From the NCBI GenBank assembly GCA_964016885.1, contig OZ024742.1, forward strand, positions 273,172,001-273,236,000: a stretch of DNA of 64,000 nucleotides. Reading direction: 5' to 3'. Below are positions 3,343 through 61,771 of this stretch, piece by piece (position 1 is the first letter of the stretch; every line of letters starts with the position of its first letter). Under the pieces are notes generated by a model that worked only from the letters and a program-made list of their open reading frames with translations, had not been told where the DNA came from and ran no database searches. The stretch is from Eledone cirrhosa. Lineage: Eukaryota. A program made the translations under genes and the position numbers.

Positions 3343-4170
3343 TTGAGTATCAGTACTGCTAAGTTTAATATTCTGATCGCAGACTTGGTACGAGTGATGA
3401 AGAACGTGTCCCGCATGTGCGACCCAACAGAAATGGAAAGAGACATCCAACAGTTCATCAACCGCATGCAGTTCTCTGGCTACAACCAAAGAGACAGAAT
3501 CAGAGTATACGAAGGAGCCACGGAGAAGTATAAGACCCTCATAGAACTGGATATGAAAGGAATTTGCCCATTATACAGGAGCAAATCATGGAATAGCTTA
3601 GATAGGACTAGACATAAAATAGGGAATGCCACCACATGGTACGACAACCAGAGATACGAGAGTGTCATGTTTGTGGCGCGACCCCTGGTGGGAAATTAGC
3701 TAACCAGTGTAGAAAGGCTCTGAGAAAGACCCACTTAAAGGTTAAGGTGGTAGAAAAGCCAGCAACCACCATAAAATCCCTGATCAGCAAAACCTACCCT
3801 TTTAAGAAAATCCGCTGTACTAATAGGAAATGTATCATATGTAGAGTAAACTCCCGGATAAACTGTAAAACTAGAAACGTAGTCTATAGCATAAGATGTA
3901 CAGAGGGTACTTGCAGAAACATGACAACAGCATACATAGGCGAGACAGCTCGTAGCATAAGTGAAAGGATACACCAACACTGGGGGGGGGGGACTAAAAG
4001 GACGAAAAAACGGTTCAGTACTATACGAACATGCCAGACAACAACACAACGGTAACATAGACAACATAGAAGTTAGAATAATATCTAAACATAGAAATGA
4101 CCCAGCAGATAGGCAAATCAGAAAGGCCAGCTAAATAGAACTTAGAAGGCCAAGGCCAAACAGAAGAAAA
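3343..4170 (+). pseudogene. PLE RT thumb / GIY-YIG endonuclease, frameshifted
   Basis: CIIC..NCKTRNVVYSIRC..AYIGETARSISERIHQH is a GIY-YIG-type motif; two frameshifts. Confidence 0.85.
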
Positions 4171-4480
4171 TGAATGGAATAACAACAACACCCAAACAAA
4201 CGACACTGACCTAAGAGAAGTATAAATAAATAAATAAATAAATAAATACATACACAAGCACAATAACAACAAACACATATAAACACACACTAGTAAACTA
4301 AGATAGAATACATTAACCAATACACAGTCACCCAAACAAGAAGACACATCAAACAAAACACTATAGGCACACGCAAACGCATGCGCAGAGAAGACAAAAA
4401 AATAAACACATAAATAAATAAATAAACAGACTAAATAAAGACGGCGTAAGCATACAATGCAACGGGAGGGAACATAATAG

Positions 4481-4524
4481 CACCATTGACGATGTTGCAG
4501 ATGTGCAACGAAAGAACTTTGTTA
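4481..4524 (+). ncRNA. Minimal type I hammerhead (TTGACGA core variant)
   Basis: Sister copy of 2896-2940. Confidence 0.6.
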
Positions 4525-4789
4525 GACTATATATATGTGTTTGTGTCTATATTGTATCTGTACTTTTGACCGTTGGTCAGACAATGTCAACATTGAAGAC
4601 CGAATGAATTAAATTAACCGATATAATAGACACAGAAGCGGTAACCAACCAAACAGTGAGTGTGTTCTGTTATTAATTCTGGCAATATTATTACACAAAT
4701 AGGACCCTCCCCAAGTATAACAATATTTGTTTCGACACACGATTTCATATCAAAAACCTCGCAAAACTAATTATATATATATATATACG

Positions 4790-5221
4790 ATATTAACAAA
4801 TGGAAACTATATTTATAAAACTATATTTATTTCATTATACATATTTCAAGAGACCAAGTTAAATTATGGTGTGCTTTCATCAGATAAAATATAATATAGA
4901 TCAGTTTTATAAATAAATATTGACATACCCTTAAAGAATGCAACCATTACTGTTGGGACCTTCCAACAGTAATGGTTACATTCTTTAAGGTTTTGTCAAT
5001 ATCTATTTATAAAACTGATCTATATTATAATTTATCTAATGAAAGCGCACCATAATTTAACTTGGTGTCCTTGAAATATGTATAATGAAATAAATATGGT
5101 TTAATAAATATAGTTTCCATTTGTTAATATCGTATTTTTACTCTCCAAATATTTGTTAAGTGCTTTATATCAGTTATAAAAATATTTGCTTGTTGTATCC
5201 CAACAATTTAAATAGAACTTT

Positions 5222-5222
<1 letters not shown>
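4790..5222. repeat. Family B HHR-bearing short element as an inverted pair (HHR at 4830-4889 minus; G5A-mutated copy at 5031-5090 plus)
   Basis: ttttat-CTGATGA-aag..ctt-GAAA-tatgtat-A-atgaaa; relatives at 7950-8210, 37920-38280 and 40710-40970. Confidence 0.75.
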
Positions 5223-5306
<84 letters not shown>

Positions 5307-5357
5307 ATAATAAAATAACAGGAGGCTGGACTTGTGTAAATCATTGAAGGGTTTATT

Positions 5358-5415
5358 ATACTATGATCATTTCAATGACCGGGTTCCGTATGAATCCGGG
5401 GATATCATCAGGTAT
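5358..5415 (-). ncRNA. Minimal type I hammerhead, family C
   Basis: Reverse complement: atac-CTGATGA-..ccgg..ccgg..-GAA-ATGATCAT(palindrome)-A-gtat. Confidence 0.7.
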
Positions 5416-5497
5416 TCGAAATATAATAAATGAATGTAACAGATAAAATCCATGGGGCTGAAAATCCCGAGGAAGACCGACCATCTAGCATCTTCCA

Positions 5498-5552
5498 CTT
5501 TAGCCGGTCGCCCTCAACTTTAGCCAGTCGCCCTCAACTTTAGCCGGTCGCA
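5498..5552 (+). repeat. 20-bp tandem repeat, about 3 copies (ctttagccggtcgccctcaa)
   Basis: Direct inspection. Confidence 0.85.
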
Positions 5553-5668
5553 CCAACTACACAAACGAAGACGGTTGAGCTGCTTTACGTTGAGTACTCT
5601 CCATATTATTACATGAAGATTGACCATACGGAATTGACCAGCTCTATCCAGTGGTTAACCTTCAAACC

Positions 5669-5728
<60 letters not shown>

Positions 5729-5755
5729 CACACATATATATATACATATACATAT

Positions 5756-5837
<82 letters not shown>

Positions 5838-6191
5838 ACATATATATATAAATATGTATATATCGAGAGAGAGGAGAGAGAGGAGAGAGAGAGAGAGCCA
5901 GGGATTGAATTACATGCATGTATTCAAAATCAGAGTCATACATATACTGTAAAATAGGTTTAATTTCCTTTTGTAGACACTAAAAGTAACATTGATATTA
6001 TTGATATGAAACTACCATTGTTCCGTTGATGATCATATGCCTAATGTATGCCAGAAGCAGTGTCGAATTAAACAGAAAGTATGTTCATGTAATGACTTTG
6101 CAAATGGATCGTACTCTTTCTATTAAAGTCGATGTTTTTTTCTCGCCCATTTTCATACACAATCACACATACGGGAGCGCACATACACGCT

Positions 6192-6323
<132 letters not shown>

Positions 6324-6336
6324 GGGGGGGGGGGAG

Positions 6337-6375
<39 letters not shown>

Positions 6376-6715
6376 AAGATAGATAGATAGATATAGATAT
6401 ATATATAGATATAGATAGATATGTGTGTTTTCTGTATGCATTAATATATAAATAAACATAGATATGCAAGCTCAGAAATAGGCACATGAGAAATAACCAC
6501 AATATAGTTATAGATAACTAAGGAATAAGTACGTTCTGCTAATTAACAATGACACATTTAGTAACACACATAACGCATACAAATAACAAAAACAGATTGC
6601 TATTAATAATAGAAAAGTTTAAATATATATATGATGAAACAAAATATTTTTTGTATTCGTAGTCAACTCGTAAAGAACAAAAAGAAAACATATGATATAT
6701 ACATACATATACATG

Positions 6716-6764
<49 letters not shown>

Positions 6765-6886
6765 AACATTACTGTTTACATAAGTGTGTTCCTGACTGTT
6801 TATGTATGAATAGGCTGCATATAATATTGTTATTGCGACATCATTCAGAATGTAATTAGATGTTGCGCACTCATAGAAATACACAA

Positions 6887-6962
<76 letters not shown>

Positions 6963-7791
6963 GCATCCACAAACACACACAAACACATATATATGTTTAT
7001 TTATTTGTCTGTATAAAGGTGTTTGTGTATGGGGGGAGATGTCTTATGGATATGTGTTTGCTTATACACATCTATACAATATGTTAACATATATATATAG
7101 AGAGAAAGATAGATAGAAATAGAAAAAGAGGGAGATACATTGAAGGTAATTTAATATGTATATGTAGATGTGTGTTTCTGTGTGCGAGTCTGTGGACATG
7201 TTATTGTGGTGTATGTCCTATATGCCCATATAAAACATCAATCCTTTTTATCAATGCATGTTATTGTGTGAAATGTATAATGCGTCTTGTAAAGAATTCG
7301 ATTTCTTGAAACATATTAGTGAAAGTCTTAGGTAATGGATGGTATTAGTTCAATAGAATGAACTCACAGTAATTTTTCCTTATTTACACGTCAGCCGCAT
7401 TGTATTTCACGCAACTACTTTCAATTGAACATCGATCACATATGTATCCACAACAATATATAATTTATATTACTATACTCATACGCATGTACACACTCGT
7501 ATATATATATATGTGCGTGTGTGTGTGTGTGTGTATGTATGTATGTGTGTGTGTGTGTATTGGTATATATATATTATTAAAGTGTAGGAGCCCACACCCT
7601 CCCCCCAGTGTGAACCTATCTACATACACTTAGCTTGAATTCTTTCTGACATTGTTTTCTAAATAAAATTATAATTTTAAAAGAATTCCATTTTCTTTAA
7701 ATCCATAAAAAAATGACCCCCACCCATCCCAATCACCACCCTCTCCTACCACCAGAAAATGTATAAATACCTCCACATTACTTGGACAGTC

Positions 7792-7842
7792 GGCTTCCTG
7801 ATGATTTCTCCCGAATAAAACACTTCTAGTCCTGTAGAAGCC
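7792..7842 (+). ncRNA. Type I hammerhead, family D (this copy has GAAA>AAAA)
   Basis: ggcttc-CTGATGA-ttc/gaa..-ctgTA-gaagcc; part of a ~350 bp element 7565-7930 repeated at 38390-38750. Confidence 0.6.
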
Positions 7843-8082
7843 ATTTCTATATTAAACATTTAAACTTTACTATGTATTAAGTACTTTACTTACTGTGTTT
7901 ACCCCTGATTGAGCCCGGGATAAACTGTATATATATATATATATAAGTAGAAGGGATATTTAATTTGTTGGAAATTCAACAAATATAAATGTTTATAACT
8001 GTTTCAGAGCACTCGACAGTTTCTGGAGTAAATATTCAATGATATTAAATAAATTGAAACTATATTTATAAAACCATATTTA

Positions 8083-8140
8083 TTCTATTATATGTATTTC
8101 AAGGGTACCCAAATCTTTGGTGCGCTTTCATCAGATAAAA
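8083..8140 (-). ncRNA. Type I hammerhead, family B
   Basis: Reverse complement: ttttat-CTGATGA-aagcgcacc..ggtaccctt-GAAA-tacatat-A-atagaa. Confidence 0.7.
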
Positions 8141-10719: not shown

Positions 10720-12090
10720 TAAATGGAAAAGAATGAAACGAAATTTCATTTCTCACTCTTAGTACGGCTGATACCTAAATATAAGTATGTATACGTACAT
10801 ACATACATATATGTGTACAGACGTACAGTAGTATGTATATATATACATACATGCACACATCTATATATGTACGTATGGGTTTACCGAACATTTTTTTATA
10901 ATGTTCGGTTTGTTTGTAAACAAACAGTCCGAATTACGCCGTGCCTTGCTCGGCAACCATCGTCGCCCTTTTGTTCAACACTGACACATGAACGATGTAC
11001 TAGTTTCAAGCTTATTAGCTACCGTCAGCATCGTATACCTTCCTGTCAGATGATTGAACGTTTGAAAGTATATACTTTCCTAATGCACATTAACGACTAA
11101 GCAGCCTAATTTGCATATTGAGTGAGTTAGTCGGCCGGGCGTGCCGAAAATGGTAAATGGAAAAGAATGAAACGAAATTTCATTTCTCAATCTTAGTCTC
11201 TTAGTACGGCTGATACCTAAATATAAGTATGTATACGTAAATACATATATGTGTACAGACGTACAGTAGTATGTATATATATATACATACATGCACACAC
11301 ATATATATGTACGTAAAGGGTTTGCCGAACATTTATTATAATATTCGGTTTGTTTGTAAACAAACAGCCGGAATTATGCCGTACAGTGCTCGGCAACCAT
11401 CGTCGCCCATTTTTTCAACACTGACACAGGAACGATGTACTAGTTTCAAGCTTATTAGCTATCGTCAGCATCGTATACCTTTCTGTCAGATGATTGAACG
11501 TTTGAAAGTATATACTTTCCTTACGCATATTAACGGCTGTGTGCATGTATGTATATATATACATACTACTGTACGTCTGTACACATATATGTATGTACAT
11601 ATACATACTTATATTTAAGTAACAGCCGTACCAAGAGTAGGAAATGCAATTTCGTTTCATTTTTTCCGTTTATCGTTTTCGGTGCACCCGGCCGATTAAC
11701 CCACTTGATATGCAAATTGGGCTACTCAGCCGTTAATATGCATAAGGTAAGTATATACGTTCAACAATCTGGCAGGAAAGTATACGTTGCTGACGATAGC
11801 TAATAAGCTTGAAACTAGTACAGCGTTCCTTTGTCATTGTTGAACAAACGAGCAACGATGGTTGGTAGACACTACGACTTAATACGGGATGTTTGTTTAC
11901 AAACACACCGAGCATTATAATAAATGTTCGGTGATCCATACGTACATATATATATATGTGCATGTATGTATATATATATATATACATACTACTGTACGTC
12001 TGTATACATATATGTATGTACGTGTACGTACTTATATTTAATTTACAGCGGTACTAAGTGTGGGAAATGAAATTTCGTTTCATTTTTTCC

Positions 12091-12095
<5 letters not shown>
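10720..12095. repeat. Family E retrozyme-like ~440-bp unit: two tandem copies plus an inverted copy
   Basis: HHRs at 10993-11033(-), 11433-11473(-) and 11785-11825(+); other copies at 31393-31965 and 60958-61480. Confidence 0.85.
11785..11825 (+). ncRNA. Minimal type I hammerhead, family E
   Basis: cgttg-CTGACGA-t-agct/aata/agct-t-GAA-ACTAGT-A-cagcg. Confidence 0.85.
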
Positions 12096-12136
<41 letters not shown>

Positions 12137-12269
12137 ATAAATTTGCTGAAATGTGAAAGTACTACAAATATTAAAGATATTACCATTTATAAATATTAAT
12201 ATATTAAAATATAAAAAATTTAAATTGTTAAAGAAAATAGGATCATTTTGAAGATTTATAGGAATATTA

Positions 12270-13500
12270 TCAATTACACATAGTTGTGAATGTAGAATTT
12301 TGGCGATGTCTGCAAGAAGAAAATAATTCTATCCTGCGATTAATAGAGTTTTGACAGTTAATTATATAAAATATTTCTTCGATACACAATTTACGAATTT
12401 TGATAAAGCCATATTGAAGTACGCAGTTGCTTTGAAATCGTTTTCCAAGATATTAAATAGTCTATATTTTTGCTTTTTAAGTTCCATATAAGATGTGGAA
12501 GAGAAGTGGAAGATTTTTTATCAGATCTTTTGAAAGAATGATTATGGTTATTTCAGCAATCTTTAAATTTTGTAGAAGTGGCACCGACATAGTTAAATAT
12601 ATTATCTCTAGTTTAAACTGTGCATTTATTGATTACGTTTTTATCTAAACACTTATTTTGATAAAGGGCTGTTTGATTTAATTCTACAGTTACATTTTAC
12701 GGAGTTGTTGTTGCTCGGAACGGTACTATCATACTGGATATTGCTAGAAATATTATTATTGCTATTATGGTTTATTTGATTAGGGTTTAAATTGAAGTTT
12801 CTATTATTAATTCAATTCATATTTTGTTCTATGTTCATAGTCGCAGAGTAGGATAGTATTATTGTATGCCTGTTAAAGATTGAGTTGTATCTGTGGGCTT
12901 TAGAAAAACATTAGTCTAGTGCTTTAAAGAATAGCTTTGCTAAAGGTGTTTTATCGCTTAATGATAATGGGGGGGGGGGAGTACCAAATAATATTTTTAG
13001 TTTTAGTTATTTTGTTTGATTTAGAGTTTAAGTTAAATTGTTTATTATTATTATAATTAATACTAGGGTGATTGGCTATGTTATTGTTGTAAATGTATTT
13101 AATTTTATTCGAATATACTGCTCTATTTAAAGCTTCGTTATAATATAGCCTTATCATCAACAGTATTTTTATTATCGGAGAGGCGTGAAATCCGTTGTTG
13201 GACACTATTGACAATAGTGTTCTTAATAGATCTAGGATGATTAGAATTAACATTTACGTAATTTAGATTTTCGTTAATTTTATGGAAAGGATAGTAAAGC
13301 CCTGTGCTAAGGTTTAATGTTACATCTAAGAAGTTAACGATTTTATAGTTATTCTCTATTACTAACTTAAGGTTATAATTATTGAATAATTGTATTATGG
13401 ATTTTCTTTTCATATTAATTTCACAGTTACTATGGTTTTCAATTGAAAGCAGGATATCTCGTCACGATATAAACCACCGGTTATCTCTGGCATTTTCCTA
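12270..13500 (-). pseudogene. Decayed PLE RT + GIY-YIG (YRDD-type)
   Basis: VNFLDVTLNL..PFHKINENLNYVN..SNHP; IIWYSPP; downstream YVGATST; homologous to 41239-43130. Confidence 0.8.
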
Positions 13501-13532
13501 TGCAGTGTATCATCATTATCTATAAAAGGCAG

Positions 13533-13714
13533 TGGTGGATTGGCAGTATCGGTAGAGGGTCGGACATCATGCTTTCCAGCATAGTTACGTCCCTTTACGA
13601 TCTGAGTTCAAATCCCGCCGAGGTTGACTTTGCCTTTCATCCTTACGGGGTCGATAAAATAAAGTACCAGTAATGCACTGGGTAATTGCTGGCCTTGTGC
13701 CTAAAGTAGAAACA
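13533..13714 (+). mobile_element. tRNA-derived SINE with 18-bp target-site duplication
   Basis: B-box-like GAGTTCAAATCC, central gcctttcatccttacggggtcgataaaat; TSD attatctataaaaggcag at 13515 and 13715. Confidence 0.85.
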
Positions 13715-28263: not shown

Positions 28264-28325
28264 ACGCTCTGAGGATTCCTGCCGCAATGTATGGATGAAA
28301 CATTGTTATATAACTATGTAGGCGT
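28264..28325 (+). ncRNA. Type I hammerhead, family F
   Basis: acgct-CTGAGGA-tcc/gga-GAA-ACAT..ATGT-A-ggcgt. Confidence 0.75.
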
Positions 28326-31392: not shown

Positions 31393-31965
31393 GAGAAAAG
31401 AATGAAACGAAATTTCATTTCTCACTCTTAATACGGCTGATACTTAAATTTAAGTATGTATGTACACGTACATGCATATATGTATACAGACGTACAGTAG
31501 TATGTATATAAATATACATACATGCAAACATATATATATATATATCTGTACGTATGGATTTACCGAACATTTATTATAATGTTCGGTTTGTTTGTTTGTA
31601 AACAAACAAACAGCCCGAATTACGCCGTACAGCGTTCAGGCAACCATCGTCGCCTTTTTATTCAACACTGACACAGGAACGATGTACTAGTTTCAAGCTT
31701 ATTAGCTATCGTCAGCATCGTATACTTTCCTGCCAGATGATTGAACGTCTGAAAGTATATACTTTCCTTATGTATATTAACGGATGAGCAGCCTAATTTG
31801 CATATCGAGGGAGTTAGTCTGCCGGGCGCACCGAAAACTATAAATGGAAAAGAATGAAACGAAATTTCATTTCTCACTCTTAGTACGGTTGATGCTTATA
31901 TATAAGTATGTATGTACACGTACATACATATATGTATACAGACGTACAGTAATATGTATATATAT
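31393..31965 (-). repeat. Family E retrozyme-like unit (~1.3 copies), HHR at 31680-31720
   Basis: Same sequence as 10720-11530. Confidence 0.85.
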
Positions 31966-31999
31966 ATATCTTCAATTTCTTCACGCTATCTTTGATTTT

Positions 32000-34233: not shown

Positions 34234-34266
34234 TGTGGAGAGGAAGCACGCGAGTTAGGATATATA

Positions 34267-36546
34267 TGTATGAAAACAGGGAGAAAGAGACGGTTATTAG
34301 GAAGAAAAATATATTTTCTTCCTTTTTTTATTTATTTCTCTCTTTTTTCTGGGTTAGAAAATGATTAAAACGAAATGTTTTACTTTGTGTGAAGTGTTAA
34401 GGTATTAGTTGATTTATTTATTAATTAACAATGGCATTTATTTATCTATTTATATATTTAATAATTGTCTATTACCGGTTTCACCATTTTTATGCATTAT
34501 CAAATGATAGTGATATGTATTAGTGTAGAATGGTGGTCTCGCACATGTTAAAGAAATGGTGCAGAAAGAATAATGTTATTTACAAACAAGGTTTATGAAG
34601 TGAAAAGAAACAAACAAAAAGAAAAAAAACGGCGGTAATGTAGAGCATAAACAGTCAATGTGAAAGGAAAAATAATGGTATTTACAGGCATAGTTCTTGA
34701 AGTTAAGCAGATCAAAATGTGTTAATGTAGCAAGGGTACTTAGTTGATCCATGACTCCATGATGCAGGCAAATGGTAGACTGATGTTTGATATGATTTCC
34801 CTTTGTAGAGAGTTAATATGCAGAGGGAGGAAATTCATGCTGGATGATATTTAATTTATTTAAGAAAAAGGATTAGGTAGGGTGTGAGGGAGGTAACTCT
34901 TGTAAATGTTTGATTGTTGCAGTTTTAGTTTGGTCCGAAGTTTAGTGCAATAAATAGAGGTTGGAATTTGTTAATGAAAGATGTTTCCTTATTGGTACGA
35001 TGGATGAACGTAGCGTTATCTATGAATTTGTAAATGGGGAAATTTTTAATGTTTGGATGTTGGTTGTGTGCACAATTGGCGATATGTTCACTAAATGTAT
35101 TCCTGTATTTTAATTTGTGATTTATAGACGGTCATACGTTGACGGTGGCTGTTTTTGTCTTTTCTACGTAGTGCTCTAGACAACCTGAGCAGATGAACAC
35201 ATAGATTAGGTTTTCAGATGCACATATAAAGTTGTGTTTAAGTGTGAAATGTTGAACCTTCTATTAGATGTATGCATATGCCACAATTGGGCCTTCCGCA
35301 TTTTGTTACTGTAGGGTTCAATGTAAGGGTTTGTTGGATTTTGACTTGTGTGAGGATGTTTTTTATGGATTTAGGTTGTTATTTTCTCTTTATGATGTTG
35401 TGGGTTTGGAGGATTTTGTTCATTCTTGGGTCTCTTTTTAGTAAATGAATGTTCTGGAGGATGGTGTCCAATGCCTCATTGTTGAGGAGGTTGTGTGTGG
35501 AGATGTATGGTAGAGTTTTTTGTTGCGGTTCTTTCATGGGTTTGGGTGTCTGAGTTCCTGGATATCGAGTTTTAGGCCACGTTGGAATCCATTGTTTATT
35601 AGGGATGGTGGGTAGTTTCTGCTGATAAGTGTTTTTTTTTATTCTTCTAGTCGTTTGTAGCATGTGTATGACCGTCCAAAAGTCACAAATTAAAATACAG
35701 GAATACAGAAAGATTGCATTTAGTGAATATATCGCCAATTGTGCACACAACCAACATCCAAACTTTAAAATTGTCCCCATTTACAAATTTATAGACAACG
35801 CTACTTTCATCCATCGTTCCAATAAGGAAACATATTTCACTAACAAATTCCAGCTTCTGCTTAATGCACTAAACTTCGGACCAAACTAAAACTGCAACAA
35901 ACAATCAAACATTTACAAGTGTTACCTCCCTCACACCCTACCTAATCCTTTTTCTTAAATAAATTAAATATCATCCAGAATGAATTTCCTCCACCTGCAT
36001 ATTAACTCTCTAAAAAGGGAAATCATTTCAAACCTCAGTCCACCATTTGCCTCCATAATGGAATCATGGATCAACTAAGCACCCTTGCTACATTAACACA
36101 TTTTGATCTGCTTAACTTCAAGAACTATGCCTGTAAATAACATTATTTTTCCTTTCACATTGACTTTTTATGCTCTACATTACCGCCGTTTTTTTCTTGT
36201 TGTTTTTTTCTTTTCACTTCATAAACCTTGTTTGTAAATAACATTATTCTTTCTGCACCATTTCTTTAACATGTACGACACCACGATTCTACACTAATAC
36301 ATATCACTATCATTTGATAATGCATGAACATGGTGAAACCGGTAATAGACAATTATTAAATATATAAATAGATAAATAAATGCCATTGTTAATTAATAAA
36401 TAAATCAACTAATACCTTAACACTTCACACAAAGTAAAATATTTCGTTTTAATCATTTTCTAACCCAGAAAAAAGAGAGAAATAAATAAAAAAGGAAAAA
36501 AATATGTTTCTTCCTAATAACCGTCTCTTTCTCCCTGTTTTCATAT
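34267..36546. mobile_element. Neptune-like PLE 3' end (minus) with ~870-bp inverted arms (34267-35137 / 35666-36546)
   Basis: LPYISTHN..; NLIYVFICSGCLEHYV; RMTV; homologous to 47350-47960; TTGATAA..GAAACCGGTA motif in both arms. Confidence 0.85.
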
Positions 36547-36664
36547 AAATGTATATATATATATATAGAGAGAGAGAGAGGTAGAGAGAGGTGGAGTGAG
36601 GGGGAGAGAAAGAGAGAATAATAACATGCGAAGGAGTTTCAGATGTTACAACACTTTATTGATA

Positions 36665-38619: not shown

Positions 38620-38670
38620 AGCTTCCTGATGACTTCTCACGAATGAAACAGTTCTATTCCCGTAGAAGCT
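38620..38670 (+). ncRNA. Type I hammerhead, family D
   Basis: agcttc-CTGATGA-ttc/tcac/gaa-GAAA-cag..ccg-TA-gaagct. Confidence 0.75.
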
Positions 38671-40811: not shown

Positions 40812-41238
40812 TACAATATAAACAGTTTTATAGATAAATATATTCGACATACCGTAATAAACATCAACTTCATTTGAAGAGGTTCACTCTAGCAGTCTAT
40901 TTGTCGAGTGCTTTTATATCAGTTATAAATATTTACTAGTTGTAACCCAACAATTTTAAATATAACTTTACATGTATATATGTATATATATATATATATA
41001 TATATAAAATAAATAAATAAAAATAAAGATAATAATGACAAAAATAAAAGCAAAGAAGGGGGTGAGAAGGAAGAAAAGAAAAGATACCCAAGAAGGGGAA
41101 AGGAAGAAAACGAAGAAATAGAAGAGGAATGAGGGAGAAGGGGGGATATATGTATTGGTTTTGTGGGTAATTAAAGGGTCTAGATATAAGAGGGTATAAA
41201 GTCTAAGTATATGCAGTTTGTCAGTTGGTAGTAAGAGG

Positions 41239-43125
41239 TTAAGTGTTCGATTTGTAGTGCGAAAATTTCTCTTTGAGTCTATGGTTACAATAAATTGATG
41301 TCTCAATTTTATTGTTGAGTAACCTATTCTTCGAACTTAAGATGTGGAACAGCTCAAGGTCGCATAATCGACAGCTTCTCATACCACTCCGAAATGGGGG
41401 CGCGTTTGATAATTTTTTCCACTTCAGGGTGTATTGATGGTTACTTTCCCTCAGTTGCCAGGTCTTGTTTGCAAGGGTAGTTACATAACGGTGCTGGGAA
41501 TGTTTCATTGCGTAACGGTGTGTATACCAACGAGCTTTAAAAGTATTCCCAGTCGCTCCGATGTAATATCATTGCTGGTTGTCTGATTCCACTGTGCATT
41601 GGTAAACCAGGTTAGACTGCATACATTCATTTTGTAATGGACAGGTTTCAGGTAGGTGGCAGTTGCATTTCTTGTGGGCTGCGATACCCGAACAAGTGTG
41701 TTACGTTTTGTTTGCCTATTAGCGGGTGGTTGTGTATTAGATATTCTGTTGTGTTCGGTGGTAATTGTATTGTTATTGTTGTAAATTTGTGTTTTGGTGT
41801 TGTTATGTATCTTTTTAGCGTTAAGCATCTTAATGTGTGCTTCTATATTTGGTGCCGTGGAGCAGGATAGTCTAATAGATTTAGTGTTAAGGATTTTGCT
41901 GTATCTATGTGAATCTGGAAAGTGCCTATTTATTATTCTAAAGAAAGCAGAGGGTAGGTTAGTACTAATAGAGGTGTTAAATATGGGGTTATACCAAATA
42001 TATTTTCTACTGCGTGACTTGTTTGATTTCGATGTTGTACTTCTATTTGCCGTATACTTTGCAGTTCTATGCGTAAATGTGTGTATGCGTGTGTTTCTGG
42101 AGTTTGTGTTATGCGTGTTCGTGTGTGCTTCACAGAGGCTTTCATCTATATATTCTACTCTATCTAAGTGGCCTGCCTTGTCTAATGCGGTATTGTAGTA
42201 TTCTACATGTTCTTCGAAGATTTGCCGGTTAGATGAGAGGCGGGAGATCCTAAGGGATATACTGCGTGGAATGAATTTAATTATTGATAGTGGGTGGTTT
42301 GAGTTACAGTTGATGTATGCTAAGTTTTCATTAATCTTGTGAAAAGGTCTTATAAGTCCCGTATTTAGGTTAAGCGTCACATCTAGAAAGTTAACTGTTT
42401 TAGTGCTATACTCGTACGTTATGCTAAGGTCTAGTTTTCCGAGAGTCTTTCTAATATTCTTACGGAGTCTTTCTATGCTCTGGTTATTTAGGTTCTTAAC
42501 TAGGAGAAGGGCGTCGTCTCTGTAGATTCCACCGTGAAGGTCGCTAAACTCGCTTTGTAAACTATGGGCTATGTAAATACCTACTAAGTCTGTAACTTGA
42601 GCCAATAGGCGTTTTCAAATATAATTATTGTTTTTCTAGCAGCTAATATGATTTTTATCTCGTCGTCTGTTATGTCAGAATTGGCTTTGGCGAATGCTAA
42701 GGCTTTATCCAAGGTGTTGGGGGATATAGATGAGTAATAATCGTTAATGTCAAATTGTATAAATTTAGATACTTCTTTGTTAGCTATATTGTTAAACCAT
42801 TTAATTGTTTCGGTAGCCTTACTTCATACTTTAATCACTAGTTTATTCTTCATTTGTGCTATCACTCTGTCTAATATATGTTTACTAATTTTCCCGATGT
42901 CCGATTTGGATGGGCATATAAGTCTAATAGTGGGGTTATAATCAAAATTTACCTTGTGGTCTTTGAGGTTAAATGTGGGGTTTACATGGCTTAAGTGGCT
43001 CCGTTCTGTCGTCTATTCCTAGGTGTTTGACTATATTGTGTGCCTCGTTGTTGATGTTTATCAGTGCCGCCTCATTTGTTTTTTTGTATTTCCTATGTAA
43101 TTCTTTCCGTATGAAGCTATTGTAT
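41239..43125 (-). pseudogene. PLE reverse transcriptase and GIY-YIG, frameshifted
   Basis: GGIYRDDAL, VNFLDVTLNL, SNHP, YIWYNP, CRLCDLE..LLN..CNH. Confidence 0.9.
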
Positions 43126-43417
43126 GTATTAACCTCTTACTACCAACTGACAAACTGCATATACTTAGACTTTATACCCTCTTATATCTAGACCCTTTAA
43201 TTACCCACAAAACCAATACATATATCCCCCCTTCTCCCCCATTCCTCTTCTATTTCTTCGTTTTCTTCCTTCCTTCCCCCATCTTGGCTATCTTTTCTTT
43301 TCTTCCTTCTCACCCCCTTCTTTGCTTTTATTTTTGTCATTATTATCTTTATTTTTATTTATTTATTTTTATATATATATATATATATATGTGTGTATAT
43401 GTGTGTGTGTGTGTATG

Positions 43418-44740: not shown

Positions 44741-45044
44741 GCAGAGTAATTCGTGGTGGCAGGGATGGTCAGTAAGAATGTGTCTGAAAGCAATGGGGGG
44801 TAATTTAGCATGTCAAAAGATATTTTTCAGCTTTTGATTCACACAAAATGAAAATTCGAACAATTCCAAAATGGAACAAATCCCTCAGAGACAGAAAGTT
44901 CTCATTCTGGAAGATGATACAAAATCACAACAAAGCAGAGATATATGAAAAATGGGTTAAATCAACCCCACTAACTCCCCCCGTAAACTACAAATAAAGT
45001 CCATTCCAAATGAACCCGAACCTCAAAGACACCTTAGGGAAAGA

Positions 45045-45902
45045 ATGGTATTGGAAAAGAATACAGAAATTGAACTTATTAAACTGAGGGCCCAAACAAA
45101 TGAGGAAAAAATCAAAACAATCGATGAAGAGATCCTCCTGGAAATCAACAACAAAACTGAAGGCCCCAAGGTAGAGAAGATCTCCAAATTATGGAAAGGG
45201 GACTGCAACAGAGAAGAACTGAAATCCCTTCAACGCTGGGAAAAAAGTGCCGCTTGGTTCCTACACTATGAATCGACTTTTCAAACGGATTACACCTCCA
45301 ATAACCCGTTCATAAAAATAGGAAAACCCATAACTGAACCGCACAACAACTTCTCAAACCCCCAAGCCTCTAACAAACGAAGAAGGAAGCAGCACACCGA
45401 AGATGAACTTCCCAACCTCGCTACCATAAGAAGGAACAAAAACCCAAGAAATCATCTCCCCCAGAATAACATTTACAACTTTCCCCCTTCAAGGAGACAC
45501 CATACCAAATCACTCAACTACTACGCGGATGCCTCATCGTCAAACATAGGGAAAATATACCACCGCCATGATAGATGTAACAACTTCCCCGCTTCAAGAG
45601 GACAGCAAGGTAATTACCATTTTCTCAACTCTCGCTTCCACAATACACAACAAACCCACACCACACGATACAACCAACAAAGTAGGCCACTTATAACATC
45701 ACAATACAACATGGCACATAGAAACACACACCCATACTCGCAGTACAGGAACACCCCATTCAATCTACAACCACCAACCCGAACCACATTTTACAACAAC
45801 AAGGAATATAACAAACACAGGAGACCACTTAACATCAGCAGACAACCCCTCTACCCCAACCATTTTTTAGACACAGCACACAGATACAGGCAAACAAAAT
45901 AA
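45045..45902 (+). CDS. PLE upstream ORF (coiled-coil N-terminus, basic low-complexity tail)
   Basis: 285-aa ORF directly upstream of the RT ORF. Confidence 0.55.
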   Translation: MVLEKNTEIELIKLRAQTNEEKIKTIDEEILLEINNKTEGPKVEKISKLWKGDCNREELKSLQRWEKSAAWFLHYESTFQTDYTSNNPFIKIGKPITEPHNNFSNPQASNKRRRKQHTEDELPNLATIRRNKNPRNHLPQNNIYNFPPSRRHHTKSLNYYADASSSNIGKIYHRHDRCNNFPASRGQQGNYHFLNSRFHNTQQTHTTRYNQQSRPLITSQYNMAHRNTHPYSQYRNTPFNLQPPTRTTFYNNKEYNKHRRPLNISRQPLYPNHFLDTAHRYRQTK

Positions 45903-45935
45903 CACAAGACAGGGAGGAGAAACCGATAGTAATAA

Positions 45936-47960
45936 AAAATTATCAATCTTACTAGTGCAGAACCAACACCCAACCTTATCAACTTACTCTCCAAAGGTCT
46001 TAAATTCACACCGACCCCACTACGTCCTAACTACTATGAAATGAAGGAAGACATCACCGACTTCTGTAGAAAGTTACGACTTAGTGAACAACTATTCGAC
46101 CAGTACAATGAGGATGAATCATTAGCCAGAAATAGAAGCAATTACACCCCTTCAAAAGGTAGAAATAAAATCCTGGACGAATTCTGTGAACACATCACAA
46201 ACTTCCCTTACCAACACTTGCACAGACAAAAAGACAAGCCAAACCTCAACAAGAAAGAATGGGAAGAATTAAATAGATTAAAAACCGACAGAACCATTAC
46301 AATTAAAGAGGCTGATAAAGGGAGTACAGTAGTCCTAATGGAGACATAATTCTATATCAACTTAGCGCTCTCCACTTTGGAAAACGAAACATACTACGAA
46401 AAGGCTGAACACTACAATCAACAGAAAATTATGAGAAACCTAAAAACTCTAATCAACCAATACAAAGAAGGACTCACTAACAAGGAATTCAGCTTCATCA
46501 CAGACTTCACAAGTAAATCCAGCCTTTTCTACGGTATCCCTAAAGTACATAAAAGCGAATCAATAAGTAAGGCATGCAAGGAAGCCACAGACATAGTCAT
46601 CAATGTCCTCTCACCCAATGATCTCAAATTAAGACCTATAATAGCAGGCCCCGCTTGCGAAACGCACCGTCTTAGCAACTTCATTGATACCCTTCTCAAA
46701 CCCTTCCTCAAGCACATCAAAAGCTATATAAGGGACGACCTAGATATGCTCAATCACCTCCCTAATATGCCACTTCCTGAACAAACCCTACTAGTGACCT
46801 TCGATGTAGTCAACCTATACTCCAACATCCCCCACAACCTAGGAATAGAAGCTATCCAATTCTGGCTGGATAATTTCCACAATGAACTCCCACAACGCAT
46901 CAAAAAAGAATTCGTGATAGAGGGACTCAAATTTAGCTTGGAGAACAATTACTTCGTTTTCAATAACAAACCCTACAGGCAGAAATCTGGGACTGCTATG
47001 GGAACGAAAACAGCCCCCACTTATGCCAACCTAGTCATGGGATACCTGGAAATCACCCTCTACACTAAAGTCCTAAACAAATTTGGAAACACCCTCCACT
47101 TACACATTGAAAGGAACTGGAAGCGATATCTAGATGACTGCTTCATCGTTTGGCACGAAAACATCGAAAAACTTAAAGAATTTCACACCCTTATAAATGG
47201 GCTCAACACAAATATTAACTTCACGAAGGAATACAGCCATCAACAACTCCCCTTCCTCGACATCCTCATTAAGATCCATAACAAAAAAATAGAAAGAGAC
47301 ATATACTACAAGCCCACAGACTCCAAGCAATATCTCCCCTTCAACTCTTCCATACATCTCCACACACAACCCCCTCAACAATGAGGCCTTTGACACCATC
47401 CTCCAGAACATCCCTGTATTGAAAAAGGACCATAGAATGAACCAAATTCTACGAACACACGATATCATAAAGAGCAAAAGACAATCCAAGTCAATGAAAA
47501 ACATCTTAACACATGCCAAAGTACAACGAAACCACAACAACGAAACCCACAGTAAAAAAAATGCGATAGACCCAACTGTGGCATTTGCATCAACCTAATA
47601 GAGGGTTCGGAAATCTATTTCAAAGATGGACAACGTTTTATAGTAAAACACAATTTCACATGTGCATCGGAAAATCTAATATATGTATTAACTTGTTCAG
47701 GTTGTCGAGAACAATACATAGGCCAGACCAAAAACAGCCTCCGCCAACGCATGACTGTCCATAGATCCCAAATTAAAATACGGGAATACAGGAAAATACC
47801 ACTGAGTGAACACATTGATACCTGTGCCGCCCAAAATCATCCCAACTTCAGAATCTTTCCCCTCTACAAATTTAAAGATAATGCCACCCACACCCAGCGC
47901 ATCAGCAAGGAATCTTACTTCATTAACAAATACGGACCCCGTCTAAACACTTCTCCCTAA
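45936..47960 (+). pseudogene. Neptune-like PLE RT + GIY-YIG (one nonsense codon at 46347, internal deletion at ~47345, frameshifts)
   Basis: LSKGLKFTP, KEADKG, FYGIPKVHK, RPII, FDVVNLYSNI, GTAMG, RYLDD, FLD, FTCASENLIYVLTCSGCREQYIGQT..QRMTVH. Confidence 0.95.
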
Positions 47961-48640
47961 GACGAAACCACAACATACACACGTCAACATACATACCTAC
48001 ATCAGCACACATCTCTACCCACATATAAACACAATGACATACGTAAACACACATGCTCTATGGTGCAACACAAAAAAATATATGTGCATATATATGTGTA
48101 TCTATATGTATATATGTATATATATATATATATATATGTATATAGTGAATATATGTATGTGTGTATATATATATAGTGAATATCATTTCACACCTTTTAT
48201 TGTTAAGATTTTTGATGTTCTATGAAGAGAACCGATTTTACTGAAAAAATCGAATAATGTACACCATTTTACCAGGGGGAATAAAATACTGGTCCACCCA
48301 CACACACACACACACACACACATACACACGCGTACATCAACATACAAAGAGACTTATATATACACACACACACACACGCACTTCTCCGTATAAGACAAAA
48401 GCTGAAAAATATCTTTTGACATGCTAAAATACCCCCCATTGCTTTCAGACACATTCTTACTGACCATCCCTGCCACCACGAATTACTCTGCTCCCCCCCC
48501 CCCACCCCCCCCACACACACACTTATCTCAATAGCCATTTGACACACATCGCTGCTAACCATTATCACAACATCGAACACCTTACTAGACTTCTATAAGA
48601 ATCAAACATTCATGGTTTTCAGCAAACAGGAGGAGTAGTT

Positions 48641-48685
48641 AGCTTTGATGAGCACCAAAAAGTGCGAAACAGGACTCTGTCAGCT
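48641..48685 (+). ncRNA. Type I hammerhead with extended stem I (family L)
   Basis: agct-TTGATGA-gcac/caaaaa/gtgc-GAAA-cag/gact/ctg-TC-agct; outer helix 48616-48708; second copy at 61646-61738 (-). Confidence 0.8.
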
Positions 48686-48810
48686 TTATCTCCTCTGTCT
48701 GCTGAAAATTAAAAAAAGTGAGACTGTCACTACTCTAAAACAATAGGGCAAGGTCTTCGAAATGCTTTTAAATAAGCATAGAGTGTATTGCAAAATACAC
48801 TATATATACA

Positions 48811-60853: not shown

Positions 60854-60957
60854 ATTAACATTTAACATTTTACCATATTATTTCATTATAATATCATTAA
60901 AATTTAAACATTGTAAATAAAAGTTGGAGTTCCTTTTATTATTATATATATATAGTC

Positions 60958-61480
60958 GGAAAAAATGAAACGAAATTTCATTTCCCACACTTAGTACGGC
61001 TGTTACTTAAATATAAGTGTATACACGTAAATACATATATTTATACAGACCTACAGTAGCATGTATATATATATACACACATGCACACATATATATATAT
61101 GCACGTATGGATTCACCGAACATTTATTATAATGTTCGGTGTGTTTGTAAACAAACATCCCGTATTAAACCGTAGTGTCTAACAACCATCGTTGCTCGTT
61201 TGTTCAACACTGACAAAGGAACGCTGTACTAGTTTCAAGCTTATTAGCTATCATCAGCAACGTATACATTTCTGCCAGATTGCTGAACGTATATACTTAC
61301 ATTATGCATATTAACGGCTGAGTAGCCCAATTTGAATATCGAGTGTGTTAATCGGCCGGGTGCACCGAAAACGATAAACGGAAAAAATGAAACGAAATTT
61401 CATTTCCCACTCTTAGTACGGCTGCTATTTAAATATAAGTATGTACACGTACATACATATATGCATATATATAGTATATG
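60958..61480 (-). repeat. Family E retrozyme-like unit, HHR at 61222-61262 (CTGATGA core)
   Basis: Closest to the 11560-12095 copy. Confidence 0.85.
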
Positions 61481-61771
61481 TATATATATATATATGTATA
61501 TATATTAGAATTGGTGCCTCTTAAATAGCGATATATATATGAATGTATATATAGTGTATTTTGCAATACAATGTATGCTTAATTAAAAGCATTTAGAAGA
61601 CCTTACGCTATTGTTTTAGAGTAGTAACAGTCTCACTTACTTTAATTTTCAGCAAACAGGGAAGATAAAGCTGACACAGATCTGTTTCGCACTTTTTGGT
61701 GTTTATCAAATCTAAGTACTCCGCCTGTTTGCTGAAAAAAAATATATATATTCATACATACATACATACAT

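What the first reader, a model, noticed from the sequence alone, without database searches (positions are those of the whole stretch)
10720..12095. Family E: dispersed 440-bp tandem units with one minimal HHR each (retrozyme architecture)
Seen: HHRs exactly 440 bp apart (10993 and 11433), a third inverted copy, and further ~1.2-1.3-mer insertions at 31393 and 60958. There is no credible ORF. Two subfamilies differ by a double change in stem I (cgatg/catcg vs cgttg/cagcg). Established: metazoan non-LTR retrozymes are short HHR-delimited tandems that give linear and circular monomer RNAs. Inference: more-than-unit-length insertions fit reverse transcription around a circular RNA.
Basis: partly seen in the sequence, partly recalled or inferred. 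Interest (0 to 1): 0.75.

Follow-up and report, generated by a model that had tools for sequence, protein, structure and literature searches.

The report
Hammerhead repeat spread by Penelope-type insertion
A 420-440-base non-coding repeat with one hammerhead-ribozyme motif per unit lies in thousands of copies in this animal genome, and its insertions have the shape left by Penelope-like retrotransposons, so it is likely an ordinary member of the known 'retrozyme' class copied by their enzymes; a circular RNA stage is predicted but untested.

Summary
Window 10720-12095 holds 1.86 units on the minus strand joined head-to-head to 1.27 units on the plus strand. Each full unit carries a type-I hammerhead motif: full core, 6-bp helix I, 4-bp helix II, and a palindromic ACUAGU helix III that can pair only between two motifs. 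Two more 1.3-unit copies lie at 31395-31968 and 60957-61495. The genome search gave 3,744-4,712 first-look candidates.

I mapped 125 arms from three genome searches.
- 3' ends are fixed at unit position ~285 (66 arms) or ~220 (38 arms), and 81 of these 104 ends abut (TA)n.
- 5' ends are spread round the unit.
- 37 head-to-head pairs were found: 24 have one end of each type, none has two 220 ends.

Coding Penelope-like elements (PLEs) in the same window show the same twin-arm, TA-flanked shape. Two loci hold hybrid family-E/PLE twin insertions.

Family E is therefore a non-autonomous retroelement of the non-LTR retrozyme kind, most likely inserted by PLE machinery. No PLE examined shares sequence with it. 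Rfam models do not detect the ribozyme, and no RNA data were available. The circular-RNA template remains an inference. Verdict: a new member of a known kind, of moderate interest.

The parts
10720..10997 (-). Left arm, 3'-terminal partial unit (unit positions 1-284, subfamily u1). The arm's 3' end at 10720 abuts AT/TA-rich DNA.
10998..11437 (-). Left arm, one full unit from cleavage site to cleavage site (440 nt).
11438..11538 (-). Left arm, 5'-truncated start (unit positions 340-440). It joins head-to-head to the right arm at about 11538.
11538..12095 (+). Right arm, inverted (subfamily u2, unit positions 139-440 then 1-285). Its 3' end at 12095 abuts (TA)23.
10992..11034 (-). Hammerhead motif 1, including helix I. 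Core A9 is G in this copy.
11432..11474 (-). Hammerhead motif 2: ACGAUG / CUGACGA / U-AGCU-AAUA-AGCU-U / GAA / ACUAGU / A, predicted cleavage, then CAUCGU.
11784..11826 (+). Hammerhead motif 3 (u2 type, helix I ACGUUG/CAGCGU).
12096..12139 (.). (TA)23 between the 3' end of the right arm and the 3' end of a decayed PLE on the minus strand.
31395..31968 (-). Solo copy of about 1.3 units (unit positions 153-440 then 1-278), with one hammerhead at 31685-31715. The 3' end abuts TA repeats.
60957..61495 (-). Solo copy of about 1.3 units (u2), with one hammerhead at 61227-61257 (CUGAUGA). The 3' end abuts TA repeats.
12140..13600 (-). Context: a decayed PLE (RT and GIY-YIG fragments) whose 3' end faces the same (TA)23. 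It is a separate insertion.
41006..43369 (-). Context: a coding PLE (PLE2) with the same anatomy. The main arm is on the minus strand and a 237-nt inverted arm lies at 43129-43369 (+). Both 3' ends point outward onto TA repeats.
44961..47960 (+). Context: PLE1, with RVT_1 followed by a C-terminal GIY-YIG domain and a CX4CxxC linker. A TA-rich tract lies about 120 nt after the stop codon.

Best explanation
Family E is a 420-440-nt non-coding repeat with one type-I hammerhead motif per unit whose copies carry the insertion marks of Penelope-like elements (PLEs), so it was most likely copied next to TA repeats by a PLE reverse transcriptase-endonuclease from an RNA longer than one unit (predicted, not shown, to be a ribozyme-processed circle or an uncleaved multimer).

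Shown by the sequence:
- The strand that carries the hammerhead is the strand whose 3' end is fixed.
- Arms end at unit position ~285, just after a predicted 10-bp hairpin, or at ~220. Both kinds of end run into (TA)n.
- 5' ends are scattered round the unit.
- Arms run from 0.3 to more than 7 units.
- Arms often come as head-to-head twins with both 3' ends pointing outward.

Inferred life cycle:
1. Loci with two or more hammerheads would be transcribed.
2. Two motifs would pair through the ACUAGU palindrome to build helix III and cut out monomers.
3. A host RNA ligase would close the monomers into circles.
4. A PLE enzyme would nick a TA repeat on both strands and prime cDNA on family-E RNA at the two fixed sites.
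5. The two cDNAs would be joined by a few bases of microhomology.
For: Motif. The full core is present (C3-A9, G12-A14, A15.1/U16.1, H17=A), with a 6-bp helix I and a 4-bp helix II. Helices I and II form in the minimum-energy fold.

Constraint on the motif.
- 89 of 100 aligned hammerheads keep every fixed core letter.
- Core columns vary less than non-CpG control columns: 0.019 vs 0.038 (p 0.035) in u1, and 0.006 vs 0.021 (p 0.021) in u2.
- The subfamily majorities differ at 45 of 440 columns. Only 2 of the 44 hammerhead columns differ, and these two pair with each other (A-U to U-G).
- 132 of 138 instances keep a standard pair at that position.

Insertion anatomy, from 125 arms.
- 3' ends: 66 at ~285, 38 at ~220, 21 elsewhere.
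- 81 of the 104 fixed ends have (TA)>=4 within 16 nt outside, against 15 of 47 for the 5' flanks of solo arms.
- 5' ends are spread over all eleven 40-nt bins of the unit (chi-square p 0.058).
- 37 head-to-head pairs: 24 are 285/220, 4 are 285/285, 0 are 220/220 (p 7e-5 against independence). Junction gaps are mostly -9 to +5 nt.

Match to published PLE features. Craig et al. 2021 describe 5' truncation, partial tandems, an adjacent inverted 5'-truncated copy, a tail present at one end only, and (TA)n bias (PMC8557442 passages).

Local PLEs show the same anatomy: PLE2 at 41006-43369 and a PLE1-like pair at about 34255-36560.

Hybrid twin insertions. In L093 a PLE(-) arm ends on (TA)33 and joins a family-E(+) arm with no gap. 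In L094 a family-E(-) arm joins a PLE(+) arm.

A very young PLE family is present: matches 99-100% identical over 150 aa, 785-aa open frames, and 17,913 first-look candidates.
Against: - No PLE examined shares sequence with family E outside TA-rich stretches. This covers the window's PLE1 and PLE2, 20 loci of the young PLE family and its tandem array. The partner is therefore unidentified.
- Rfam's hammerhead models give no hit even at E<=10.
- Helix III cannot form within one motif, so activity depends on an untested dimer.
- 5' ends do not clearly pile up at the cleavage site: 4 of 125 arms within 3 nt, about 1.7 expected (my count from the lists).
- No run on record as RNA was listed, so there is no RNA evidence either way.
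- The loci are the best matches to three queries, which favours long and well-preserved arms.
- Most solo arms have (TA)n only at the 3' side. Whether the repeat is the target or a tail made during insertion is open.
- Arrays with 2- and 3-unit higher-order periodicity point to DNA-level amplification as well.
Confidence: 0.8

Rival explanations
1. The template is specifically a monomeric circular RNA, made by double hammerhead cleavage and ligation, on which the reverse transcriptase runs round and round. This is a refinement of the best explanation, not an opposite.
For: - 87 of 125 arms are at least 1 unit long and 25 are at least 2 units, and all of them read straight through the cleavage site.
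- Both cDNA start sites are internal to the cleaved monomer, so a linear cleaved monomer cannot be the template.
- Units within one arm share private variants far more than units of different arms (Jaccard 0.136 vs 0.033 in u1, 0.342 vs 0.049 in u2). Some arms have identical units, for example L012 and L048.
- The model is stated in the Discussion of PMC7229834.
Against: - Many arms share no private variants between their units, for example L001, L035 and L049.
- Coding PLEs of about 3.55 kb form the same partial tandems, and no circle has been proposed for them in the passages I read.
- Dimer and trimer higher-order arrays would need multimeric circles or DNA-level amplification.
- Uncleaved multimeric transcripts or template switching explain the same data.
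Confidence: 0.45
2. The copies are just truncated tail ends (pseudo-LTR parts) of a coding Penelope-like element, not a separate non-autonomous family.
For: - The anatomy is the same as that of PLE insertions.
- PLE protein matches lie within 1.5 kb of family E in 12 of 79 loci.
- In L092 an open 694-aa PLE frame starts directly after a family-E arm.
Against: - Arms pass round the 420-440-nt unit repeatedly without any ORF, up to at least 3.2 kb in one locus.
- No family-E sequence lies downstream of the PLE ORFs in L091 and L092.
- Zero family-E matches outside TA-rich stretches in 20 loci and one tandem array of the abundant PLE, or in the window's PLEs.
- PLE fragments are so dense here (7 places in 64 kb) that mere neighbourhood is expected by chance.
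Confidence: 0.07
3. A DNA-level repeat: a foldback-type transposon with long inverted ends built of subrepeats, or a satellite spread through extrachromosomal DNA circles and recombination at TA repeats.
For: - 37 head-to-head pairs look like long terminal inverted repeats.
- TA-rich flanks resemble TA target sites.
- Long arrays with higher-order periodicity exist.
Against: - The two ends of a pair usually differ: 24 of 28 pairs are 285 versus 220.
- Inner ends are unequal and scattered.
- 51 of 125 arms are solo, with one fixed and one variable end. That polarity is not expected from a DNA process.
- Hybrid pairs with a coding PLE arm exist.
Confidence: 0.06
4. The hammerhead motif is a passenger. 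It is inherited from a PLE-derived ancestor and plays no part in how family E spreads.
For: - Rfam does not recognise it.
- Helix III needs a second motif.
- There is no clear pile-up of 5' ends at the cleavage site.
- The window's own first copy has a core change.
- Craig et al. note that PLE clades without canonical hammerheads proliferate well (PMC8557442 passage).
Against: - The core is less variable than control columns in both subfamilies.
- The only subfamily difference inside the motif is a compensated pair.
- The layout equals that of hammerheads shown to cleave as dimers in amphibian repeats (PMC7229834 passages).
Confidence: 0.2

Closest known systems
Metazoan non-LTR retrozymes (Cervera & de la Pena 2020, PMC7229834: Results part 1, Discussion and passages read)
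   Same: Short (150-450 bp), low-GC, ORF-free tandem repeats with one type-I hammerhead per unit, present in thousands of copies alongside PLEs. The unit RNA is predicted to be strongly self-paired (z -5.7).
   Different: No RNA evidence here. The published description, as far as I read it, does not give fixed 3' ends, TA-repeat flanks or twin inverted arms, which are the main result here. At 420-440 nt the unit is at the upper end of the reported range.
Penelope-like element insertion architecture (Craig et al. 2021, PMC8557442, passages read) and the non-autonomous PLE derivatives described there (e.g. MRC1 of Chlamydomonas)
   Same: 5' truncation, partial or multicopy head-to-tail insertions, an adjacent inverted 5'-truncated copy, an extension present at one end only, and microsatellite ((TA)n) bias.
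   Different: Family E has no ORF. Its one-ended extension is about 65 nt, against the 30-40 bp reported. The (TA)n bias was reported for Naiads, which lack canonical hammerheads. The PLEs seen here have a C-terminal GIY-YIG domain with a CX4CxxC linker. No 3'-end similarity to an autonomous family was found.
Animal retrozymes as non-autonomous PLE derivatives (Li, Clavereau & Pollet 2026 preprint, 10.64898/2026.07.22.740005: abstract, Results part 1 and Discussion read)
   Same: The same conclusion: retrozymes depend on PLEs and co-occur with them.
   Different: Their evidence is sequence kinship of retrozymes with the pLTRs of Xenopus PLEs. Here no such kinship was found, and the link rests on insertion anatomy and hybrid insertions. 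Their supplements could not be seen.
Amphibian satellite/retrozyme hammerheads HHR_Amex1 and HHR_Amex2 (PMC7229834 passages) and the classical metazoan type-I layout (PMC4209133, part 1 of the text)
   Same: Helix I of 6 bp and helix II of 4 bp. Helix III is reduced to 1-2 pairs with a small palindromic loop, so the ribozyme works as a dimer. A U-U mismatch sits at the base of helix II, as in HHR_Amex2.
   Different: Loop 1/loop 2 tertiary contacts cannot be judged here. Helix I is closed by the roughly 390-nt rest of the unit. Activity is untested.
Twin priming of LINE-1 inversions
   Same: Two cDNAs primed from the two nicked target strands and joined by microhomology give an inverted plus a direct segment.
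   Different: Here both arms can exceed one unit and overlap in unit coordinates. The second start site is a fixed position (~220) rather than an arbitrary internal site.

Membership tests
Hammerhead ribozyme, type I | Conserved core C3 U4 G5 A6 N7 G8 A9 ... G12 A13 A14 ... A15.1-U16.1, H17 not G | tested here: met
   All present in 4 of the 5 window copies (A9 is G at 10998-11028). 89 of 100 genomic instances are intact.
Hammerhead ribozyme, type I | Helices I and II flanking the core, open end at helix I | tested here: met
   Helix I is 6 bp and helix II is 4 bp plus a U-U at its base. Both form in the minimum-energy folds. One compensated pair separates the subfamilies.
Hammerhead ribozyme, type I | Helix III closing the cleavage site | tested here: inconclusive
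   ACUAGU allows only 2 pairs with a 2-nt loop, which is impossible as a hairpin. It could form a 6-bp helix between two motifs, as described for dimeric hammerheads.
Hammerhead ribozyme, type I | Match to the curated covariance models (Rfam hammerhead families) | tested here: not met
   No hammerhead family listed at gathering score or at E<=10.
Hammerhead ribozyme, type I | Self-cleavage | not testable with these tools
   Needs transcription of monomeric and dimeric constructs.
Non-LTR retrozyme | [quoted passage not shown] | tested here: met
   Units of 420-440 nt, arrays up to at least 8 units in one locus, GC 0.37, no Pfam family at or near its cut-off in the four open frames tested.
Non-LTR retrozyme | Expressed as unit-length linear and circular RNA | not testable with these tools
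   No run on record as RNA was listed. The runs laid were contigs of unknown kind.
Non-LTR retrozyme | Co-occurrence with PLEs | tested here: met
   7 PLE places in the window. A very young PLE family with 17,913 first-look candidates.
Penelope-like element (autonomous) | ORF with reverse transcriptase and GIY-YIG endonuclease | tested here: not met
   None inside family E. It is therefore at most a non-autonomous dependant.
PLE-type insertion | 5' truncation, partial tandems, adjacent inverted 5'-truncated copy, extension at one end, microsatellite bias | tested here: met
   125 arms and 37 head-to-head pairs, of which 24 have one long (285) and one short (220) end. 81 of 104 fixed ends lie on (TA)n.
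PLE-type insertion | 3'-end sequence shared with an autonomous partner | tested here: not met
   No similarity to the 3' ends of PLE1, PLE2 or the young PLE family, beyond ending in ...UUUA/UAUA plus TA repeats and having a hairpin before the end.

The most novel reading that the evidence does not exclude
Family E preserves a readable footprint of how a Penelope-type enzyme uses retrozyme RNA. cDNA synthesis starts at two fixed internal sites 65 nt apart that flank a 3' hairpin. One start is on each nicked strand of a TA repeat. Synthesis then runs round a circular template, and hybrid family-E/PLE twin insertions show that both RNAs are used within one integration event. This would be the first mechanistic genomic evidence for target-primed rolling-circle reverse transcription of a ribozyme-made circular RNA.
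Probability: 0.3. Interest if true: 0.6.

Novelty: new member of a known kind. Interest (0 to 1): 0.35.

Why it matters
Retrozymes are thought to be abundant sources of small circular RNAs in animals, but how they get back into DNA is only a model. In this genome both the repeat (subfamily u2 lies about 2% from its majority) and at least one coding PLE family (copies 99-100% identical) are young. The ends, twin arms and hybrid insertions are therefore still sharp. That makes the species a good place to test the PLE-retrozyme partnership, the origin of the TA repeats at the ends, and the use of the dimeric hammerhead. As a class of element it is already described.

Tried and rejected
- Rfam gave no hammerhead. 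The hits in the region at E<=10 are mostly miRNA-like matches to the TA-rich part, and none is a hammerhead family.
- Sequencing runs: no RNA holder was listed. The three runs laid are contigs of unknown kind from one sample and say nothing on RNA ends or circles.
- Earlier notes by place and by sequence returned nothing.
- A loose fuzzy-regex census of hammerheads picked up false matches and was dropped. It was replaced by alignment-based counts.
- The apparent ends at unit positions '391' and '48-57' are artefacts of the 50-nt margin that the genome search scores. Local BLAST on the loci replaced them.
- I looked for the autonomous partner by similarity in the window, in 20 loci of the young PLE family and in its tandem array. 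Nothing was found outside TA-rich stretches.
- The PLE array carries a core-like string (CUGAUGA...GAAA) at the same place in each unit, but I could not draw a helix I, so I do not call it a hammerhead.
- I tested whether the 5' end of the '285' arm of a pair sits at the start site of the '220' arm, as simple twin priming on one linear RNA predicts. Only 3 of 24 pairs fit, with about 1.4 expected (my count).
- The protein atlas gave only 'animal PLE-like RT' and no host taxon. I did not try to name the species.
- A direct-repeat search around the other hammerhead-like motifs at 4836-8134 returned only microsatellite families.
Full report
**What is there.**
The string CUGAYGA-N14-GAAACUAGUA occurs at 10998-11028 (-), 11438-11468 (-), 11790-11820 (+), 31685-31715 (-) and 61227-61257 (-). 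Shuffles give 0.03 expected. The five are copies of one repeat, so this shows a conserved repeat rather than five independent events.

On the strand that carries it, the motif reads as follows:
- helix I, ACGAUG
- core, CUGACGA
- helix II, U-AGCU-AAUA-AGCU-U
- GAA
- ACUAGU
- A, then the predicted cleavage site
- CAUCGU, the second strand of helix I.

This is the order of a type-I hammerhead and all core positions are present. The copy at 10998 has G for A9.

Helix III is only A-U and C-G around a 2-nt loop. ViennaRNA rates that as impossible for a hairpin. ACUAGU is a palindrome, so two motifs could build a 6-bp helix III together. The text of Cervera & de la Pena 2014 describes this layout as the usual metazoan type-I form (helix I 6 bp, helix II 4 bp, helix III 1-2 bp with a small palindromic loop, active as a dimer; PMC4209133, part 1 of the text). 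The 2020 paper describes axolotl motifs with a one-pair helix III under a palindromic tetraloop, and a U-U at the base of helix II (PMC7229834 passages).

Rfam does not detect the motif at the gathering score. It also fails at E<=10 on 1.6 kb and on 76 nt. Membership by the curated models is therefore not met, and the call rests on the hand-checked layout.

**The array and the family.**
Local BLAST resolves 10720-12095 into two arms.
- The minus-strand arm covers unit positions 340-440, 1-440 and 1-284 (819 nt).
- The plus-strand arm covers 139-440 and 1-285 (557 nt).
- They join head-to-head at about 11538. Both 3' ends point outward into AT/TA repeats, including (TA)23 at 12094-12139.

The left arm belongs to subfamily u1 (about 428-440 nt) and the right arm to u2 (about 420-422 nt). 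One u1 and one u2 unit share 367 of 440 aligned columns.

The window's other copies, 31395-31968 and 60957-61495, are about 1.3 units each with one hammerhead.

The longest open frames in the array are 125 aa through TA-rich sequence and have no Pfam family at or near its cut-off.

The genome has 2.996 Gb in 1,796 contigs. It gave 4,712 first-look candidates for a u1 unit and 3,744 for a u2 unit, of which 40 each were scored. Arrays of 8 or more units exist.

**Insertion anatomy.**
I took the loci returned for three queries: a u1 unit, the last 440 nt of a u2 copy, and the last 73 nt. Overlapping loci were dropped (L003, L023, L025, L030, L042, L043, L031, L067, L072, L089). I then mapped 125 arms of at least about 140 nt. 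The loci are the best matches to the queries, so long and well-preserved arms are favoured.

| Feature | Result |
|---|---|
| 3' ends at unit position ~285 (...UUUCGUUUCAUU(C)UUUUCC(A/G)UUUA + TA repeats) | 66 arms |
| 3' ends at ~220 (...CAUACUUAUA + TA repeats) | 38 arms |
| 3' ends elsewhere | 21 arms |
| Fixed ends with (TA)>=4 within 16 nt outside | 81 of 104 |
| 'Other' ends with (TA)>=4 within 16 nt outside | 2 of 18 |
| 5' flanks of solo arms with (TA)>=4 | 15 of 47 |
| 5' ends per 40-nt bin of the unit | 9, 16, 10, 13, 5, 9, 19, 6, 17, 9, 12 (p 0.058) |
| Arm length | 147 to >3,208 nt; 87 of 125 at least one unit, 25 at least two |

The fixed end is always the 3' end of the hammerhead strand. 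That is the polarity expected if this strand is the RNA that was reverse-transcribed.

Neither fixed end is the ribozyme cleavage site, which lies 285 or 220 nt upstream of it. Every arm longer than that reads straight through the site. The template was therefore not a cleaved linear monomer.

**Twin arms.**
37 head-to-head pairs were found, meaning 5' ends joined and 3' ends outward. Junction gaps are mostly -9 to +5 nt.
- 28 pairs have both ends of a fixed type: 24 are 285/220, 4 are 285/285 and none is 220/220. This departs from independence with p 7e-5.
- In the first locus set, whose query did not include an end, the split is 6, 1 and 0 (my count).
- One arm of a pair thus carries a 65-nt extension (positions 221-285) that the other lacks. 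This stretch holds a predicted 10-bp hairpin, read by eye from the sequence and visible in the fold.

Craig et al. 2021 list the matching features for Penelope-like elements: frequent 5' truncation, partial tandems, an inverted 5'-truncated copy next to the 5' end, a 30-40-bp tail often present at one end only, and a bias for microsatellites, (TA)n in Naiads. They attribute the complex structures to the GIY-YIG endonuclease (PMC8557442 passages).

**PLEs at hand.**
The window holds PLE protein matches at seven places.
- PLE1 (44961-47960, +) has RVT_1, a C-terminal GIY-YIG domain above Pfam's cut-off and a CX4CxxC linker.
- PLE2 (minus strand) has a 237-nt inverted arm at 43129-43369 that is 96-99% complementary to 41006-41242. 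Both 3' ends run into TA repeats.
- A PLE1-like pair lies at about 34255-36560.
- A decayed PLE at about 12140-13600 (-) ends on the same (TA)23 as family E's right arm.

PLE protein matches lie within 1.5 kb of family E in 12 of 79 loci. Given the PLE density this is not above chance, but some junctions are specific.
- In L093 a PLE(-) arm whose 3' end sits on (TA)33 joins a family-E(+) arm with no gap.
- In L094 a family-E(-) arm joins a PLE(+) arm within 16 nt. Neither PLE continues on the far side of family E. I read these as hybrid twin insertions.
- In L005 an internal RT fragment is fused to the 5' end of a family-E arm.
- Downstream of family-E 3' ends, a 5'-truncated PLE lies in the same orientation in 8 of 9 cases (my count; p 0.039). 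This is a small post-hoc count.

One PLE family is very young. The 150 listed matches are 99-100% identical to a 150-aa query. The commonest open frame is 785 aa, and there were 17,913 first-look candidates. In one array it forms a 3,552-nt tandem that ends on a long (TA)n.

None of these PLEs shares sequence with family E outside TA-rich stretches. No family-E sequence lies downstream of the PLE ORFs in L091 and L092. Family E is therefore not a pseudo-LTR of any PLE seen, and its partner is unnamed.

**Constraint on the ribozyme.**
I aligned 199 pieces.
- Copies lie about 4-5% (u1) and about 2% (u2) from their subfamily majority.
- Core columns vary less than non-CpG control columns: 0.019 vs 0.038 (p 0.035) and 0.006 vs 0.021 (p 0.021). 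89 of 100 hammerheads are intact.
- The subfamily majorities differ at 45 of 440 columns. Only two of these fall in the 44 hammerhead columns, positions 407 and 3, which pair (A-U versus U-G).
- Among 138 instances the pair is U-G 93, A-U 31, G-U 4, C-G 2, U-A 2 and unpaired 6.

This is modest evidence that the source copies keep the motif. It is not proof of activity.

The unit RNA folds much better than shuffles, with z -5.7 (and -4.8 for the other strand). Helix I closes the molecule.

**Circle or not.**
More-than-unit arms need a template longer than a unit. Units within one arm share private variants more than units of different arms (Jaccard 0.136 vs 0.033 and 0.342 vs 0.049). Some arms have identical units and others share nothing. 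Arrays with 2-unit and 3-unit periodicity exist. Coding PLEs form the same partial tandems. A monomeric circle, a multimeric transcript and template switching all remain possible.

No run on record as RNA was listed, and the runs laid are contigs of unknown kind.

**Verdict.**
Family E is a new member of the known class of animal non-LTR retrozymes. Its insertions give clear structural support for the published proposal that PLEs mobilise these elements (PMC7229834 Discussion; preprint 10.64898/2026.07.22.740005 Results and Discussion). Earlier notes of this scan on other genomes describe similar TA-repeat, PLE-type insertion patterns. They are leads, not support.

Noticed in passing
G000 genome-wide; L095-L115; e.g. 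L115 (C2:283732500-283742400, minus strand): A very young PLE family. The 150 listed matches are 99-100% identical over a 150-aa query and the commonest open frame is 785 aa. There were 17,913 first-look candidates. One array is a 3,552-nt tandem (99.3% between units) ending on a long (TA)n, with an internal (TA)n in its roughly 1.2-kb 3' non-coding part.
   Followed up: partly
L093 2408-5206; L094 164-~3100: Hybrid head-to-head insertions: one arm is family E and the other is a coding PLE. They are joined with a gap of 0-16 nt, with the 3' ends pointing outward.
   Followed up: partly
L005 983-2128: An internal PLE reverse-transcriptase fragment (about 465 nt) is fused in the same orientation to the 5' end of a family-E arm at unit position ~384. 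It looks like a template switch between the two RNAs.
   Followed up: partly
L026/L092 700-2800; L056/L091; L071, L085, L083, L045, L073, L069: 5'-truncated PLEs lie just downstream of family-E 3' ends in the same orientation in 8 of 9 cases. In L092 an open 694-aa frame starts right at the junction. The count is small and post hoc.
   Followed up: partly
window 28269-28320 (+), 38626-38664 (+), 8089-8134 (-), 4836-4883 (-): Other strings that fit a loose hammerhead descriptor (core plus helices I-III), unrelated in sequence to family E. The last two are similar to each other and lie 3.25 kb apart on the same strand.
   Followed up: no
G000 C1:49584020-49588293; C3:214129399-214132048; C28:36039916-36051324; C28:110001116-110010522: Long family-E arrays. 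The first alternates 420- and 422-nt units (2-unit periodicity). The second repeats its match scores every third unit.
   Followed up: partly
several arms: L008, L027, L028, L048, L053 (unit positions 416-419): A recurring 5' end at the base of hammerhead helix II (TAGCTAATAAGCTT...). In L027 the two arms meet in a perfect palindrome at this hairpin.
   Followed up: no
window 61505-61700 and 48600-48810; also the flanks of L022 and L062: Another short repeat (…TGTATTTTGCAATAC…GCTTAATTAAAAGCAT…) that also sits directly against TA repeats next to family-E ends.
   Followed up: no
alignment of 199 family-E pieces: Columns whose majority is CpG deviate about twice as often as other columns (0.083 vs 0.038 in u1, 0.037 vs 0.021 in u2). 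This is the pattern of CpG decay.
   Followed up: no
window 51379-53180 (+): A LINE-type fragment: a weak Exo_endo_phos_2 match followed by RVT_1.
   Followed up: no
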